A stretch of DNA of 64,000 bases from the NCBI RefSeq assembly GCF_028368995.1, contig NZ_JAQNDL010000001.1, positions 2,912,001 to 2,976,000 on the forward strand, written 5' to 3'. The notes under the pieces are model-generated. The model saw only the letters and a program-made list of their open reading frames with translations. It had not been told where the DNA came from and ran no database searches. Shown here piece after piece: positions 30,864-35,213 of this stretch. The position numbers and the translations under genes were made by a program. Each line of letters begins with the position of its first letter. Position 1 is the stretch's first letter. Origin of the DNA: Nannocystis bainbridge. GTDB lineage: Bacteria; Myxococcota_A; Polyangia; Nannocystales; Nannocystaceae.

Positions 30864-31151
30864 ATGACAGAAGAAATCAAGGTTGGGGAGGTCGCGAAGG
30901 ACCTCCAACTCGTGCTGAATGAGCTGAAGAATGTGCTCAGCACGGCACGCCGCCAGGAAGCGGAGCATCCCCGGAGCTGCGAAGGATGCGGCGGATGCCA
31001 TGGTTGTCACAACTGCCACGGCTGCGGCGGTTGCAGCGGCTGCGGCGGCTGCAGCGGCTGCGGCGGCGGGTGCCACGGGTGCCACGGGTGCCACGGGTGC
31101 GGCGGTTGCCACGGCTGCGGCGGTTGCCACGGTTGTGGTGGCTGCGGTTGA
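30864..31151 (+). CDS. TOMM/heterocycloanthracin-like RiPP precursor (38-aa leader, 57-aa Cys/Gly/His core)
   Basis: [47 protein letters not shown] followed by 19 Cys in C-x-G triplets; directly upstream of YcaO. Confidence 0.9.
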
Positions 31152-31229
31152 TCCAACGTTAACGACAATCCCTTGATCGACGCAGCACGGTCCCGGGCCG
31201 TGTTGCGTCGAACCCACTCCGATCTGGGC

Positions 31230-33374
31230 ATGAGCACCGTGATGGCCGAATCGACTCTCCATATTTCTTCGAGTGAGGATGTCACCGCTGCGGAGGTTCG
31301 ACGCCGATTGCGCGGCGCCCGGATCCTCCTGGTCGGCCTCGATCCGTGGGGCGTCGCTGCCGCGGTCGATCTGGCCGCGGCTGGCGTCGGGGCGCTGCAC
31401 ATCCTCGATGACGCGCAGGTGTCGGAGGATGACCTCGCCGCGGAGGTCTTCCCCGAGAATACGCGCGGGCTCGAGCGGGCGGCAGCGCTCTGCGCGACGC
31501 TGCGGCGGATCGCCCCCGAATGCGCAGCCACCTGGAAGCGGCTGTCGGTCGCCGCCCATCGTCCCCTCCTCCACGACGACGGCCGCTGGGATCTGGTGAT
31601 AGCCTGCGTCGCCGCCGACGAACTGCTGGTCCTGCAGAGCGTCGCCCGCTACGCCCATGCGGCCCGAGCGCCCTCGCTCAGTGCCCATATGGATGGACTC
31701 GATGCAGTGATCGGGCCGGCCGTCATACCGGGCGAGACGGCTTGCTGGGAGTGTCATCGATTGCGTCGGCTCGCCCATACCGAGGAAGGCCGCGTCGAGC
31801 ACGCGCTCCAGACCACGCTCCTGAGCGAACGGCCGCAGCCGCGCCGGCGCACTTGTCTGGCGTCCATGCCTGCATTGGTCGGCCACGCCGCCGCGCTCGC
31901 GGCGATCAATCTGCTGGTGCGAGGCAGCGCTTCCCGGTTCGCCGGCGCCGTCGTCGTGCAGAACCTCGTCGAGTTGGAGTCGTCCCTCCACTCCGTGCTG
32001 CGGATGCCCTGGTGCGAGATCTGCGGCGGCGCGCATGCGGCACGGGCAAACGACAGGTCAGCCGGCGACGCCGCGCCGCGCCTCGACGCCGCGCGCACGC
32101 CGGAGGAGCTGCGACGGATGCTCGTGGGTGTGGTCGACGCACGAGTGGGGATCGTGCGACAGGTCGAGATGGATCTGCTCAATCCAGTGAACGCGCCCGA
32201 TCTGCCGATCACGGCGACGGCGGTCCTCGGGCAGTACACGGACGGTCATTATCGATCGTCGCATTGTGGGGTGCCGAAGCTCGGCTCAGGAAAGGGCAGC
32301 ACGCTCGTCGAGGCGATGATCGGCGCGGTGGGAGAGGCGGTCGAACGCTATTCGGCGGGACGCTTCCGCGCCCGTGACTTGCTGCGCACGGCAGTCGGCG
32401 CGATGACGGGAGGCTTCATCGCCCCGGAGCGGCTCTGCTTGTACAGCGACGACCAGTACGCTCGACCCGGATTCCCGTATGCGCGGCTCGATCCGCGGAC
32501 GCCGATCGACTGGACGCTGGGGCACTGGCTCGGGACGAGCAGCGTCGTGGCAGTGCCGGCGCTGCCGGTGTATTACAACTACCCGGCCCCGCCCGAGAGC
32601 CACTTCTGTCAGGTCACCTCGAACGGGCTCGCCGCAGGTGCAGAGCTCGAGGACGCCTCGCTGCGGGCCGCGCTCGAGCTCGTCGAGCGCGACGCGTTCA
32701 TGATCTCGTGGCTCGCGCGTCGACCGGGGCGGCGGCTGCGACTGAATCGTCCGTTGGACCCCGTCTCACAAGAGATCCTGCGGCAACTCGCAGAGCGCGG
32801 CGTGCGGGTCGAACTGTACCTGCTCGACGTGGGCCTCGCGGTCCCCGTCGTGATGAGCGTGGGCCACGGCGACGGGGTTCGCTGGCCAGGCGCGACGGTC
32901 GCTCTCGCCGCGCACCTGAGCCCGCGCAATGCGATCCGCAAGTCGATCCTCGAGCAAGCGCACGTCGGGCCGTATCTCCATCGCCTGATGATCTCTGGGA
33001 GCGTGGCGATCCCGGAGCGTCCAGAGGACGTGCATACGCTCGATGAGCACGCGCATTACTACTTCCCGCCGAGCCGGGCGTCCGCGTTCGCGTTCCTCGG
33101 CGCGGGGGGCACGATCGCGGCCAGCGACCTCGAAGAGCCGGAAGATCTGTCTCTGGCCGGGCTCGTGAGGCGGATCGAAGCCGCTGGGCTGCGTGTCGCC
33201 GTCGTCGACGTCACGTCCCCGGACCTCGCGCCTACGCCGTTCCGGGTGGTCAGGGCGGTGGGGCCCGATTTCCAGCAGATCCATTTCGGTCACCTCCTCG
33301 CGCGCCTCGGTAACCCACGCCTGGCGGCGATGGCTTCGCAGGGGATCAACCCCGACCCGCACCCAATGGCTTGA
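31230..33374 (+). CDS. Fused E1-like/YcaO cyclodehydratase (TOMM C-D)
   Basis: N-terminal ThiF-like domain (IGPAVIPGETACWEC, PWCEIC). YcaO motifs GSGKG, GEAVERYS, TSNGLAAG and ELVERDAF. C-terminal PDPHPMA is typical of azoline-forming YcaOs. Confidence 0.93.
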   Translation: MSTVMAESTLHISSSEDVTAAEVRRRLRGARILLVGLDPWGVAAAVDLAAAGVGALHILDDAQVSEDDLAAEVFPENTRGLERAAALCATLRRIAPECAATWKRLSVAAHRPLLHDDGRWDLVIACVAADELLVLQSVARYAHAARAPSLSAHMDGLDAVIGPAVIPGETACWECHRLRRLAHTEEGRVEHALQTTLLSERPQPRRRTCLASMPALVGHAAALAAINLLVRGSASRFAGAVVVQNLVELESSLHSVLRMPWCEICGGAHAARANDRSAGDAAPRLDAARTPEELRRMLVGVVDARVGIVRQVEMDLLNPVNAPDLPITATAVLGQYTDGHYRSSHCGVPKLGSGKGSTLVEAMIGAVGEAVERYSAGRFRARDLLRTAVGAMTGGFIAPERLCLYSDDQYARPGFPYARLDPRTPIDWTLGHWLGTSSVVAVPALPVYYNYPAPPESHFCQVTSNGLAAGAELEDASLRAALELVERDAFMISWLARRPGRRLRLNRPLDPVSQEILRQLAERGVRVELYLLDVGLAVPVVMSVGHGDGVRWPGATVALAAHLSPRNAIRKSILEQAHVGPYLHRLMISGSVAIPERPEDVHTLDEHAHYYFPPSRASAFAFLGAGGTIAASDLEEPEDLSLAGLVRRIEAAGLRVAVVDVTSPDLAPTPFRVVRAVGPDFQQIHFGHLLARLGNPRLAAMASQGINPDPHPMA

Positions 33375-34149: not shown

Positions 34150-34178
34150 CAAGACGCGAAGTTTCAGAGGAGAACGTC

Positions 34179-35213
34179 GTGCCCAACATTCGTCTCAGCC
34201 GCTCGGCCAGCATGACACAGACGGGCGAGGGGGTCATCCTCCGCTCGGATCTCGGCACCTTCCAGATCACCGGCCCTGATATGGTCGCATTCCTCGAGCT
34301 CATGATCCCTCTGCTCGATGGGTCGCGCGATCGCGAGGCGTTGTTTCACGCGCTCAGCGGCTATTCGCGGCCGAGCGTGGGCGCGTTCCTCGATCTGTTG
34401 CAGAACCACGGCCTGATCGAGGCGGTGAACGACGCCGCGACGTTCCCCGGGCGCCTACGCGGGCAGCAGGAGTTTCTCGGCAAGTGGTCCGTGACCCCGA
34501 AGCGGACGCTCGAGCGATTGGCAGCCGCTCGAGTGCTGGTGATCGGCCTCGAGCCCTGGGGGGCGTCGGCGGCCGCCGAGCTGTCCGCGGCCGGGATCGC
34601 CGGGCTGCACCTGGTCGACGACGGCGAGCTGGGCCCACGCGACCTCACGGCCCTGCGGGGGCGCGGCGAGGCGGTCCTCGGGGCCACGCGGCGGGAGGTT
34701 ATGGCGGCGTTGCTGCGGGAGCGCGCACCGTGGTGCCGGATCGAGGACAGCTCGCTCGCGGCGCTCGAGGCGACGCCGGCCGCCGGGACCCCTGGATCGT
34801 GGGATCTCATCATCGTGGCGATCCGTCCGGACGACCTCGTACGAATGGAGCGCGTGGCGAGGTTCGCCCACCGCAGCGGGACGCCGTCCCTGTGGTCACA
34901 CCTCGACGGTGAGACGGCGATCCTCGGCCCGCTGGTGGCGCCGGGGAAGACCGCCTGCCCGCTGTGCGCACTGACCGAGGTGTTGCAGCCTCCCCGCACA
35001 CCCGTCCCCGGCCCATCCTCCCCTGTCTGTGCCGACGCGGCGGCACAGCTGCTCGGGCACCTGGTCGCCATCGAGGCGGTCAAGGCGATCACCGAGTACA
35101 CCCTCCCGAGGATCGGCGGACGCATGCTGGTCCAGCAGCTCGCCACCCTCGAGGCGTCGATCCACACGCTGGTGCGATTGCCGTGGTGTCGCGTCTGCGG
35201 CGAACGACCCTGA
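34179..35213 (+). CDS. Ocin-ThiF-like leader-binding protein (RRE + E1-like, HcaF/TfxB type)
   Basis: GAGGAG RBS. N-terminal wHTH RRE (LLDGSRDREAL..FLDLLQNHGLIE), then LGPLVAPGKTACPLC and PWCRVC. Paralogous to the YcaO N-terminus. Confidence 0.85.
   Translation: MPNIRLSRSASMTQTGEGVILRSDLGTFQITGPDMVAFLELMIPLLDGSRDREALFHALSGYSRPSVGAFLDLLQNHGLIEAVNDAATFPGRLRGQQEFLGKWSVTPKRTLERLAAARVLVIGLEPWGASAAAELSAAGIAGLHLVDDGELGPRDLTALRGRGEAVLGATRREVMAALLRERAPWCRIEDSSLAALEATPAAGTPGSWDLIIVAIRPDDLVRMERVARFAHRSGTPSLWSHLDGETAILGPLVAPGKTACPLCALTEVLQPPRTPVPGPSSPVCADAAAQLLGHLVAIEAVKAITEYTLPRIGGRMLVQQLATLEASIHTLVRLPWCRVCGERP

What the first reader, a model, noticed from the sequence alone, without database searches (positions are those of the whole stretch)
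30864..35213. Heterocycloanthracin-like polythiazole RiPP cluster in a myxobacterium-like genome, with a His-rich 19-Cys core
Seen: a compact four-gene unit of precursor, E1-YcaO fusion ending in PxPHP, SagB dehydrogenase, and a separate RRE-ThiF protein. Established: a fused C-D that lacks its own RRE and depends on an ocin-ThiF partner is the logic of Firmicute heterocycloanthracins, whose cores are (CGG/CxR)n. Inference: this is a distinct variant in a Gram-negative host. It has an unrelated helical leader and a core of 19 Cys, 8 His and 2 Ser, which could yield a long poly-thiazole/imidazole peptide acting as an antibacterial or metal chelator. I know of no characterised product of this type.
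Basis: partly seen in the sequence, partly recalled or inferred. Interest (0 to 1): 0.85.

Follow-up and report, generated by a model that had tools for sequence, protein, structure and literature searches.

The report
Myxobacterial polythiazole peptide gene cluster
A four-gene cluster in a Nannocystis-like soil myxobacterium most likely turns a small Cys-Gly-His repeat peptide into a chain of up to 19 thiazole rings; it belongs to an unstudied family also present in Sorangium and is a variant of a known kind of peptide-antibiotic pathway.

Summary
Window 30864-35213 (+) carries four genes. First, a 95-aa precursor whose core has 19 Cys, 17 of 18 spacings being exactly 3. Second, an E1-like/YcaO fusion with no RRE that ends in PDPHP. 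Third, a SagB dehydrogenase. Fourth, a 344-aa RRE + E1-like protein that starts at GTG 34179. It is a linear azole peptide (LAP/TOMM) cluster with the same split logic as heterocycloanthracin. It is not a member of that family: the precursor scores 8 bits against TIGR03601 (cut-off 35), and the partner scores 9 bits against TIGR03693 (cut-off 562). The partner is a paralogue of the fusion's own E1-like domain. Proteobacterial relatives carry RRE, E1 and YcaO in one chain. The same unit occurs in 18 Sorangium loci with hypervariable Cys-rich cores, and 10 of those 22 cores contain His. It was absent from 72 other genomes of the window's own order. I found no published product (ten literature searches). 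Verdict: a real, uncharacterised new variant of a known kind. Product function is unknown. Interest is moderate.

The parts
30864..31151 (+). Precursor peptide gene (95 aa + stop), the only copy in the genome
   Evidence: ORF with GGGAGAG before the ATG. No other significant copy in G000: the next best match is E 0.025. A Cys-rich ORF sits at the same position in 18 of 18 full Sorangium loci.
30864..30977 (+). Leader region (residues 1-38; boundary inferred from the first Cys), with the motif [12 protein letters not shown] at residues 12-23
   Evidence: A leader HMM built without the window's sequence ranks this ORF 1st of 920 stop-to-stop ORFs in the window. E is 0.58, which is not significant alone. 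The motif is shared with Sorangium, P0005, P0007 and L021 leaders.
30978..31148 (+). Core: (Cys-X-Gly) repeats with 19 Cys, where X is Gly in 8, His in 8, Ser in 2 and Glu in 1
   Evidence: Composition and spacing counted.
31014..31147 (.). Degenerate 9/18-nt tandem repeat DNA that encodes the core
   Evidence: Tandem Repeats Finder: period 18, 6.4 copies, 81% matches, over 31014-31132; period 9, 14 copies, over 31019-31147.
31173..33374 (+). Cyclodehydratase: RRE-less E1-like domain fused to YcaO (start at TTG 31173 or ATG 31230 is uncertain)
   Evidence: TIGR03604 249.6 bits, TIGR03882 66 bits, PF00899 and PF02624. PDB sequence hits to TruD and LynD at E 1e-26 and 1e-23.
31278..32027 (+). 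E1-like (ThiF/MoeB-like) domain of the fusion, with two CxxC pairs
   Evidence: 36% identical to the E1-like domain of the fourth gene, E 6e-38.
32286..33272 (+). YcaO domain
   Evidence: PF02624 residues 372-700, 228 bits.
33351..33365 (+). C-terminal PDPHP (PxPxP) motif
   Evidence: Read directly. The role of the motif in azoline-forming YcaOs is recalled, not tested.
33385..34149 (+). SagB-type FMN dehydrogenase (254 aa)
   Evidence: TIGR03605 149.8 bits and PF00881 87 bits. GGAGA lies before the ATG.
34179..35213 (+). Stand-alone RRE + E1-like protein (344 aa), the inferred leader-binding partner
   Evidence: GTG start with a GAGGAG RBS. The orthologue alignment starts here. TIGR03882 50 bits. 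The AF2 model has pLDDT 81. Foldseek top hits are MccB, PaaA, LynD and TruD over 350-373 columns.
34179..34442 (+). RRE (winged-helix, PqqD-like) domain, residues about 1-88
   Evidence: Strands 11-15, 18-23 and 26-30; helices 35-45, 52-58 and 64-76. The A2 profile hits PbtF chain 8t19 at E 3.8e-11, positions 10-88. Homologous to the N-terminus of the one-chain enzymes of Undibacterium and a gammaproteobacterial MAG.
34488..35210 (+). E1-like domain of the partner protein
   Evidence: PF00899 55.8 bits. MccB E 9e-25 and MoeB E 1e-20 with the family profile.

Best explanation
This is a complete, self-contained biosynthetic cluster for a linear azole-containing peptide (LAP/TOMM). It belongs to an uncharacterised family shared with Sorangium.

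Proposed mechanism:
1. The 95-aa precursor is bound through its leader by the N-terminal RRE of the stand-alone RRE + E1-like protein. The motif [12 protein letters not shown] is the candidate recognition site. (Inferred.)
2. That protein pairs with the RRE-less E1-like domain of the E1-YcaO fusion and so delivers the core to the YcaO active site. (Inferred from the dimeric nature of E1-like folds and from the heterocycloanthracin and thiopeptide precedent.)
3. The YcaO domain uses ATP to cyclodehydrate Gly-Cys units to thiazolines.
4. SagB oxidises the thiazolines to thiazoles. This step and step 3 are inferred from family membership above the curated cut-offs.

The expected product carries up to 19 thiazoles, a loss of 20 Da each and about 380 Da in all. 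They would be arranged as (Gly-derived thiazole)-X with X = His, Gly or Ser. One to three oxazoles from Ser are possible.

No protease, transporter or immunity gene belongs to the conserved unit, so leader removal and export must use unlinked genes. Two TldD/PmbA-like pairs elsewhere in the genome are candidates.

Evolution: the split arrangement arose inside this family by duplication of the RRE-E1 module of a one-chain RRE-E1-YcaO enzyme. It was not recruited from an ocin-ThiF F protein.

Biological role: most likely a strain-variable competition peptide (about 50%), on the pattern of hypervariable cores. Metal binding is a minority reading.
For: Family scores above curated cut-offs:
- TIGR03604: 249.6 bits against 219.
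- TIGR03605: 149.8 bits against 78.4.
- TIGR03882: 66 and 50 bits against 36.9.

Structure and domain evidence:
- PxPxP terminus.
- The fusion has no room for an RRE.
- The partner has an RRE fold in the AF2 model, pLDDT 81.
- The partner is homologous to the PbtF RRE, E 3.8e-11.
- Foldseek aligns its full length with MccB, PaaA, LynD and TruD.

Conservation as a unit:
- YcaO fusion, SagB and partner were found in 18 of 18 full-length Sorangium loci at 53-68% identity.
- None of the 6 flanking window proteins matched any of the 42 loci.
- 22 Cys-rich precursors (11-36 Cys) have conserved leaders and hypervariable cores.

Origin of the split:
- The two E1 domains are 36% identical.
- Undibacterium and a gammaproteobacterial MAG have one chain, to whose N-terminal half the partner aligns over residues 2-342.
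- In the E1-domain tree the partner-type clade has support 100/99, the fusion-type clade 88/90 and the one-chain proteobacterial clade 100/99. Together they are separated from the Nonomuraea and Bryobacterales rows at 100/98. The window is sister to Sorangium in both paralogue clades.

Other:
- All cluster genes show coding-type GC3 of 0.82-0.875.
- TldD/PmbA pairs are present.
Against: - No chemistry, expression or binding has been observed.
- The similarity of the window's leader to the family leader is statistically weak: E 0.58 in the window-only search and E 8.7 with the Sorangium-only model.
- The order of the three E1 clades is unresolved, and long branches meet at that node. The timing of the duplication relative to the proteobacterial enzymes is therefore open.
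- No true ocin-ThiF (TIGR03693) sequence was in the tree, so the independent origin rests on HMM scores and paralogy.
- The absence of immunity and export genes weakens the antibiotic reading.
- The cluster is absent from 10 of 10 same-genus genomes, so it is dispensable and could be silent.
Confidence: 0.78

Rival explanations
1. The biosynthesis is as above, but the mature peptide is a metal-binding molecule (metallophore or metal buffer). It would use the 8 imidazoles plus the thiazole nitrogens, rather than acting as an antagonistic peptide.
For: - 8 His sit at the X position of 19 Cys-X-Gly units.
- Four Sorangium loci (L006, L009, L012, L015) have Cys/His-dominated cores with 6-9 His in 28-31 residues.
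- A multihaem cytochrome gene lies 1.4 kb upstream.
- An earlier scan note on another genome proposed a chelator role for a Cys-Cys-His repeat YcaO product (unchecked).
Against: - 12 of 22 Sorangium cores have no His at all, while 22 of 22 contain Arg. The family-wide theme is Cys/Gly plus a basic residue, not a metal ligand set.
- No TonB receptor, metal transporter or metal regulator is part of the conserved unit, and flanks are not conserved.
- The cytochrome neighbour is absent from all 42 related loci.
Confidence: 0.15
2. The cluster is a true member of the heterocycloanthracin/sonorensin family that moved from Firmicutes into a myxobacterium.
For: - Same parts list: truncated fused cyclodehydratase, separate RRE-bearing ThiF-like protein, SagB, and a Cys-Xaa-Xaa repeat core. 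This matches the descriptions in PMC4603692 and PMC2674419 (passages read).
- A whole-precursor search returned one annotated heterocycloanthracin/sonorensin precursor at E 1.2e-3, through the Cys/Gly repeat.
Against: - The precursor scores 8 bits against TIGR03601 (cut-off 35).
- The partner scores 9.3 bits against TIGR03693 (cut-off 561.9) and is 344 aa against a 637-position model.
- The partner meets TIGR03882 instead and is a paralogue of its own fusion's E1 domain.
- The nearest relatives are Sorangium and Proteobacteria, with no Firmicute among the 42 loci.
Confidence: 0.04
3. The cluster is a silent or decaying acquisition that makes no product in this strain.
For: - It is found in this genome only among 73 genomes of its order, and in 0 of 10 same-genus genomes.
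- The GC3 of its genes (0.82-0.875) is lower than that of 6 of 7 tested neighbouring genes (0.876-0.958), which is consistent with foreign origin.
- One Sorangium genome (L022) keeps only the C-terminal half of the YcaO gene.
Against: - All four frames are intact and have plausible ribosome-binding sites.
- Full-length matches to all family models, with no stops.
- The precursor repeat is in frame and ends cleanly.
Confidence: 0.12

Closest known systems
Heterocycloanthracin / sonorensin LAP clusters of the Bacillus cereus group (HcaD fused cyclodehydratase, HcaF ocin-ThiF F protein, B protein; precursor TIGR03601)
   Same: - The fused cyclodehydratase lacks about 100 N-terminal residues, which are the RRE.
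- A separate RRE-bearing ThiF-like protein is present.
- A SagB dehydrogenase is present.
- The core is built of Cys-Xaa-Xaa units, varies between strains, and is encoded by repeat DNA.
Sources: PMC4603692 and PMC2674419, passages read; here.
   Different: - The leader and the partner fail the family HMMs.
- The partner is half the length, is of TIGR03882 type, and is a paralogue of the fusion's own E1 domain.
- The precursor is encoded in cis rather than far away.
- The host is a myxobacterium.
- His occupies the X position instead of Gly/Arg.
One-chain RRE-E1-YcaO heterocyclases (cyanobactin LynD/TruD/PatD type; TIGR03882 fused enzymes)
   Same: - The domain families are the same.
- LynD and TruD are among the best sequence and fold matches for both window proteins.
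- The nearest non-myxobacterial relatives, in Undibacterium and a gammaproteobacterial MAG, have exactly this one-chain form.
   Different: - Here the RRE-E1 module is duplicated: one copy is free and keeps the RRE, and the fused copy has lost it.
- Haft 2010 (PMC2887384, passage read) states that all TIGR03882 regions known then were fused to the docking (YcaO) domain.
- The cores are long Cys repeats, not cyanobactin cassettes, and there are no PatA/PatG proteases.
Microcin B17 (McbA with McbBCD) of Escherichia coli
   Same: - It is a Gram-negative LAP.
- It has a Gly/Cys/Ser-rich core.
- It has a stand-alone RRE + E1-like protein (McbB type), a SagB-type dehydrogenase and a YcaO.
- Its leader is removed by an unlinked TldD/E protease (recalled). 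TldD/PmbA pairs exist in this genome.
   Different: - In the McbBCD system the YcaO protein has no E1-like domain of its own (recalled).
- The mcb operon carries export and immunity genes (recalled), and none are linked here.
- The core here is a regular period-3 repeat with twice as many Cys.
Thiopeptide F proteins (ocin-ThiF-like, e.g. PbtF; PDB 8t19)
   Same: The RRE of the fourth protein is detectably homologous to the PbtF chain, at E 3.8e-11 with the family profile.
   Different: - The remainder of the protein does not match TIGR03693.
- There are no dehydratase or pyridine-synthase genes nearby.

Membership tests
[quoted passage not shown] | YcaO cyclodehydratase of the SagD/TOMM type | tested here: met
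   TIGR03604 scores 249.6 bits against a cut-off of 219.25, over model positions 1-377 of 377. PF02624 scores 228 bits.
[quoted passage not shown] | E1-like partner domain or protein carrying an RRE | tested here: met
   TIGR03882 is above its cut-off in both proteins, at 66 and 50 bits against 36.9. The RRE fold and PbtF homology are found in the fourth protein only.
[quoted passage not shown] | SagB-type FMN dehydrogenase | tested here: met
   TIGR03605 scores 149.8 bits against a cut-off of 78.4.
[quoted passage not shown] | Adjacent precursor with a leader and a Cys/Ser/Thr-rich core | tested here: met
   The 95-aa ORF lies 22 nt upstream of the fusion frame and has 19 Cys. Equivalent ORFs are present in 18 of 18 Sorangium loci.
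[quoted passage not shown] | Azol(in)e rings in the mature product | not testable with these tools
   This needs mass spectrometry of the expressed peptide.
Heterocycloanthracin/sonorensin family | Precursor recognised by TIGR03601 (leader-based model) | tested here: not met
   8 bits, E 4.3, against a cut-off of 35. The weak match lies in the Cys/Gly repeat only.
Heterocycloanthracin/sonorensin family | F protein of the ocin_ThiF_like family (TIGR03693 / IPR022291) | tested here: not met
   9.3 bits, E 0.3, against a cut-off of 561.9. The protein has 344 aa and the model has 637 positions.
Heterocycloanthracin/sonorensin family | Fused cyclodehydratase lacking the N-terminal peptide-binding region | tested here: met
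   35 residues precede the E1-like alignment, against 103 in the partner counted from its GTG 34179 start (numbers that position 114, from the earlier 34146 start). The frame is closed upstream at 31152.
Heterocycloanthracin/sonorensin family | Core of repeated Cys-Xaa-Xaa units | tested here: met
   17 of 18 Cys spacings equal 3.
RiPP recognition element (RRE, PqqD-like winged helix) | Three-strand sheet followed by three helices, homologous to known RREs | tested here: met
   AF2 secondary-structure elements in residues 11-76. PbtF chain 8t19 at E 3.8e-11. Foldseek alignments with MccB, PaaA, LynD and TruD span the N-terminal domain.
RiPP recognition element (RRE, PqqD-like winged helix) | Binds the cognate leader peptide | not testable with these tools
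   This needs a binding assay, such as fluorescence polarisation or ITC, with the leader and residues 1-90 of the fourth protein.

The most novel reading that the evidence does not exclude
The window and its Sorangium relatives define a new LAP product class: long, regular, cationic polythiazole polymers. The window's peptide would carry 19 thiazoles spaced by His or Gly. Some Sorangium cores are (Cys-Ser)n runs with up to 36 Cys and 28 Ser, which could give uninterrupted polyazole ribbons far longer than any known. Their target or ligand (nucleic acid, metal or membrane) would differ from that of microcin B17 or the heterocycloanthracins. Their split cyclodehydratase would be a second, independent invention of the F-protein-dependent architecture, made by duplication of the enzyme's own RRE-E1 module.
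Probability: 0.3. Interest if true: 0.7.

Novelty: new variant of a known kind. Interest (0 to 1): 0.5.

Why it matters
**Enzymology.** The cluster offers a natural experiment on how YcaO cyclodehydratases obtain their substrate. The same family exists as a one-chain RRE-E1-YcaO enzyme in Proteobacteria. In myxobacteria it exists as a split pair in which a duplicated RRE-E1 module has taken over leader binding. This form looks like the heterocycloanthracin and thiopeptide F-protein solution but appears to have arisen separately.

**Natural products.** Myxobacteria are prolific producers, yet I found no LAP from them described in the searched literature. The family has conserved leaders and wildly variable repeat cores. 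Four genes should therefore suffice for heterologous production, and the cores look freely exchangeable. That makes it an attractive platform for polythiazole peptides, whether they prove to be antibiotics or metal binders.

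Tried and rejected
1. **Complex prediction.** I submitted residues 1-100 of the fourth protein (25-row alignment) with residues 1-42 of the precursor. The result was 'no answer', with scores of 0.02 and 0.01 against a mark of 0.32. This is not evidence either way.

2. **Sequencing runs.** No expression data were obtained, and read laying was not used.

3. **Leader word search.** A word-based search with the leader alone (residues 1-42) found no candidate.

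4. **Leader HMMs.** A Sorangium-only leader HMM gave E 8.7 for the window's precursor ORF among 3780 ORFs. A broader HMM without the window gave rank 1 of 920 but E 0.58. Leader homology therefore rests on motif, position and context, not on a significant score.

5. **Promoter and terminator scan of 30200-35500.** It found 1 promoter-like and 3 terminator-like sites, none placed sensibly.

6. **Earlier scan notes.** There were none for this genome or sequence. The word search returned only other YcaO systems.

7. **Horizontal transfer.** The cluster's GC3 is lower than that of most neighbours, and its distribution is patchy. I did not test donor or direction, and I make no claim beyond 'patchy, probably mobile or often lost'.

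8. **The Cox 2015 remark on plantazolicin clusters in Sorangium.** The two Sorangium genomes checked hold 10 and 6 YcaO matches. That remark cannot be tied to this family, and the supplements that might settle it are closed.

9. **Thioamide or amidine YcaO chemistry.** I considered and rejected it because a SagB and E1-like partners are present, and no other modifying enzyme is conserved beside them.

Full report
**1. What is there**

The + strand of window 30864-35213 carries four closely spaced genes.

Gene 1 (30864-31151) encodes a 95-aa peptide, preceded by GGGAGAG.
- Residues 1-38 are a charged, Leu-rich leader.
- Residues 39-95 are a regular repeat with 19 Cys.
- 17 of 18 Cys-Cys spacings equal 3, and 17 of 19 Cys are preceded by Gly.
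- The residue after Cys is Gly in 8 cases, His in 8, Ser in 2 and Glu in 1.
- The repeat is encoded by a degenerate 9/18-nt tandem array.

Gene 2 (31173 or 31230 to 33374) is an E1-like/YcaO fusion.
- PF00899: 64 bits. PF02624: 228 bits.
- TIGR03604: 249.6 bits (cut-off 219). TIGR03882: 66 bits (cut-off 36.9).
- It ends in PDPHPMA.

Gene 3 (33385-34149) is a SagB dehydrogenase. TIGR03605 scores 149.8 bits against a cut-off of 78.4.

Gene 4 starts at GTG 34179, behind a GAGGAG, not further upstream. This is where the Sorangium orthologues begin. It ends at 35213 and is 344 aa. It matches PF00899 and TIGR03882, the latter at 50 bits.

There are two small corrections: the start of gene 4, and 3 Ser rather than 2 if the Ser before the first Cys is counted.

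**2. Which protein carries the RRE**

Gene 4's E1-like domain aligns with gene 2's E1-like domain at 36% identity, E 6e-38.
- The alignment begins at residue 36 of gene 2. In gene 4 it begins at residue 115 when numbered from the earlier 34146 start, which is residue 104 from GTG 34179.
- Gene 2's frame is closed by a stop at 31149-31151, so it cannot encode an extra domain.

An AlphaFold2 model of gene 4, built on a 25-row alignment, has mean pLDDT 81.
- It shows strands 11-15, 18-23 and 26-30 followed by helices 35-45, 52-58 and 64-76. This is the strand-strand-strand-helix-helix-helix order of an RRE.
- An E1-like fold follows.

Foldseek's best PDB matches are MccB (E about 1e-22), PaaA, LynD and TruD, aligned over 350-373 columns, that is, including the N-terminal domain. 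From recall, all four carry an N-terminal peptide-binding domain before an E1-like domain.

A profile of the gene-4 family hits the 86-residue PbtF chain (8t19) at E 3.8e-11 over profile positions 10-88. The single sequence gave E 0.017.

So gene 4 has an RRE and gene 2 does not.

**3. Relatives**

A scan of one genome per species returned 42 loci.
- 19 loci are from 16 Sorangium genomes. 18 of them are full length, at 59-65% identity. L022 keeps only the C-terminal half of the YcaO gene.
- In 18 of 18 full loci the fusion, SagB and the gene-4 orthologue are present on the same strand.
- They are contiguous in 16 of the 18 loci. L001 and L003 carry an inserted second precursor plus a second fusion gene.
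- None of six flanking window proteins matched any of the 42 loci at E 1e-5 or better.
- Sorangium's own flanks (protein kinases, an amidohydrolase) are not in the window.

The four-gene unit is therefore the cluster. No protease, transporter or immunity gene belongs to it.

Each Sorangium locus has one or two Cys-rich ORFs just upstream, giving 22 precursors.
- Their 40-45-residue leaders are conserved.
- Their cores are hypervariable: 11-36 Cys, repeat units such as CGGG, CGGR, CRCGG, CGHCH, CGGY and CS.
- Arg is present in 22 of 22 cores, His in 10 of 22, and 5 or more His in 6 of 22.

The window's core is special only in having no Arg, a uniform period of 3, and His at every second or third unit.

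**4. The leader**

The window's leader has no word-sharing homologue in the large protein collection. It scores weakly against leader HMMs built without it:
- E 8.7 among 3780 ORFs.
- E 0.58 in the window-only search, but rank 1 of 920 window ORFs.

The aligned segment is always the same: [12 protein letters not shown] against KDLDVxVKEIRN of Sorangium.

A whole-precursor search returned 19 proteins at E 0.01 or better.
- Two unannotated metagenomic peptides (P0005, P0007) have the same PKDL...E.H.AI..L motif and Cys-X-Gly cores.
- P0023 is a more distant example.
- Similar cores ride on nitrile-hydratase-type leaders (PF02979; P0009, P0012, P0014).
- One annotated heterocycloanthracin/sonorensin precursor (P0016) and Legionella signal-peptide proteins were also returned.

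The Cys-X-Gly repeat core is thus a recurrent design attached to several unrelated leaders. The window's leader belongs, weakly but consistently, to the Sorangium-type leader family.

**5. Origin of the split architecture**

In three Undibacterium genomes and a gammaproteobacterial MAG (40% and 36% identity to gene 2) there is a single 836-894-codon frame. Gene 4 aligns over residues 2-342 to its N-terminal half, and there is one match per genome. Sorangium So ce56 has two matches: the orthologue at 60% over residues 1-342, and the fusion's E1 domain at 38% over residues 104-341.

I built a maximum-likelihood tree of 50 E1-like domains.
- Left out: L022, which has no E1 part; L024, which had no HSP of 180 aa or more; and the 14 distant loci L025, L027-L032, L036 and L038-L042.
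- The partner-type clade (window + 18 Sorangium) has support 100/99.
- The fusion-type clade (window + 21 Sorangium copies) has support 88/90.
- The one-chain proteobacterial clade has support 100/99.
- The three are joined at 100/98 against the Nonomuraea and Bryobacterales rows. Their mutual order is unresolved, and long branches meet there.

The window is sister to all Sorangium sequences in both paralogue clades, as expected if the pair travels together.

A full HMMER scan of 1.84 billion representatives with gene 4 found 838 proteins at E 0.001 or better, 183 at 1e-10 and 62 at 1e-30. I classified the top 62 with phmmer, using the window's own RRE, E1 and YcaO parts as queries.
- 32 have RRE + E1 without YcaO; some are fragments from short contigs.
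- 26 have RRE + E1 + YcaO.
- 3 have E1 + YcaO without an RRE.
- 1 has E1 only.

Both the one-chain and the split forms are therefore common in environmental data.

**6. Comparison with heterocycloanthracin**

Cox et al. 2015 (PMC4603692, passages read) make these statements:
- All heterocycloanthracin producers have a fused cyclodehydratase missing about 100 N-terminal residues.
- The ocin-ThiF-like F protein (IPR022291) binds the leader.
- An F protein occurs outside heterocycloanthracin and thiopeptide clusters in only two cases.

The RRE-Finder paper (PMC7470986, passages read) contrasts TIGR03693-fused RREs (heterocycloanthracin, thiopeptides) with TIGR03882-fused RREs (other LAPs).

Here the logic is that of heterocycloanthracin, but the parts are of the other kind.
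- Gene 4 scores 9.3 bits against TIGR03693 (cut-off 561.9).
- The precursor scores 8 bits against TIGR03601 (cut-off 35).
- Gene 4 passes TIGR03882.

Haft et al. 2010 (PMC2887384, passage read) noted that all TIGR03882 regions then known were fused to the docking domain. Gene 4 is an unfused one.

I therefore file the cluster as working like heterocycloanthracin without being a member of that family.

**7. Host and distribution**

A neighbouring PabAB-like gene (22740-24656, minus strand) is 91% and 90% identical to Nannocystis exedens and N. radixulma. The 'myxobacterium-like' reading is right, although only one gene was tested.

The cluster was found in:
- 0 of 72 other genomes of the window's order, including 0 of 10 of its genus; 42 of the 73 genomes are high quality.
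- 0 of 400 other genomes sampled from its phylum.
- 5 of 151 genomes sampled from Sorangium's family.

The cluster's GC3 (0.82-0.875) is below that of 6 of 7 tested neighbours (0.876-0.958). The distribution is patchy. I did not test direction of transfer.

**8. Mechanism and function**

The mechanism given under Best explanation follows from the established chemistry of YcaO/E1-like/SagB systems (recalled, and described in the papers cited above). It also follows from the domain anatomy shown here. Leader binding by gene 4 and pairing of the two E1-like domains are inferences.

Leader cleavage and export are unassigned. Two TldD/PmbA-like pairs exist in the genome, one about 85 kb downstream. 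This is only a lead, by analogy with microcin B17 (recalled).

Function is unknown.
- Hypervariable cores behind conserved leaders are the pattern Haft described for a 'strain-variable bacteriocin' (PMC2674419, passages read). This makes a competition role the best guess.
- The His content allows a metal-binding reading for this member, but the family as a whole favours Arg.

**9. Literature**

Ten full-text searches found no description of this family or of a product from it.
- One paper lists an antiSMASH 'LAP, RRE-containing' region in a table of predicted gene clusters (PMC11876861, passage read).
- Cox 2015 mentions Sorangium only under plantazolicin. The Sorangium genomes checked hold 6-10 YcaO matches, so that remark cannot be tied to this family.
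- Subscription-only papers and supplementary files were not searchable.

**10. Verdict**

This is a real, intact, uncharacterised LAP cluster. It is a new variant of a known kind.
- Its family label, its claim that the leader is unrelated to anything, and its implied uniqueness are not.
- Interest is moderate, at 0.5. The enzymological twist and the repeat-polymer products deserve an experiment, but the class, chemistry and split logic are all precedented.

Noticed in passing
L005:5443-5748, L008:5298-5666, L023:5361-5666 (Sorangium loci): Three precursors of the same family have long (Cys-Ser)n cores, with up to 36 Cys and 28 Ser at spacing 2. If fully cyclised they would give uninterrupted thiazole-oxazole chains much longer than any described polyazole I recall.
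   Followed up: partly
L001 (about 9421-10840), L003 (about 8440-9814), L005 (about 2443-3814): Some Sorangium loci carry a second precursor and a second RRE-less E1-YcaO gene but only one gene-4-type partner. One leader-binding protein may therefore serve two cyclodehydratases.
   Followed up: partly
L018-L021 (Undibacterium spp. and a gammaproteobacterial MAG): One-chain RRE-E1-YcaO enzymes sit beside very long Cys-rich ORFs with CxxC-type hydrophobic repeats: open frames of 239-325 aa, cut at the frame's or locus's end. Their short leaders resemble the myxobacterial motif. No SagB lies within 6 kb.
   Followed up: partly
L022 (Sorangium cellulosum So ceGT47): Only the C-terminal half (residues 380-714) of the fusion gene is matched, and neither SagB nor the partner is found in the locus. 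It is probably a remnant of the cluster.
   Followed up: no
G000:C3:251047-252000 (locus L043), outside the window: A second YcaO gene lies in the same genome (261 bits, ORF 1285-2511 of L043, 408 aa). It has no fused E1-like domain, and I did not examine its context.
   Followed up: no
G000:C2:1179002-1179424 (locus L134), outside the window: A SagB-type dehydrogenase domain (85.7 bits) lies inside a 1955-codon open frame. It is possibly an oxidase domain embedded in a megasynthase.
   Followed up: no
window 27960-29432 (+): A multihaem c-type cytochrome (PF13435, PF02335 and related families) lies 1.4 kb upstream of the precursor. It is not conserved beside the cluster in any related locus.
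   Followed up: partly
window 22740-24656 (-): A fused chorismate-binding/glutamine amidotransferase gene (PabAB-like) is 90-91% identical to Nannocystis. Its next-best relatives are Microbulbifer and Xenorhabdus at 61-67%. That odd spread suggests a secondary-metabolite gene. An FAD monooxygenase-like gene lies nearby at 19721-21097.
   Followed up: no
window 43000-51400: The G+C content rises to 76-78%, with overlapping open frames of 1250-2506 codons on both strands. Not examined.
   Followed up: no
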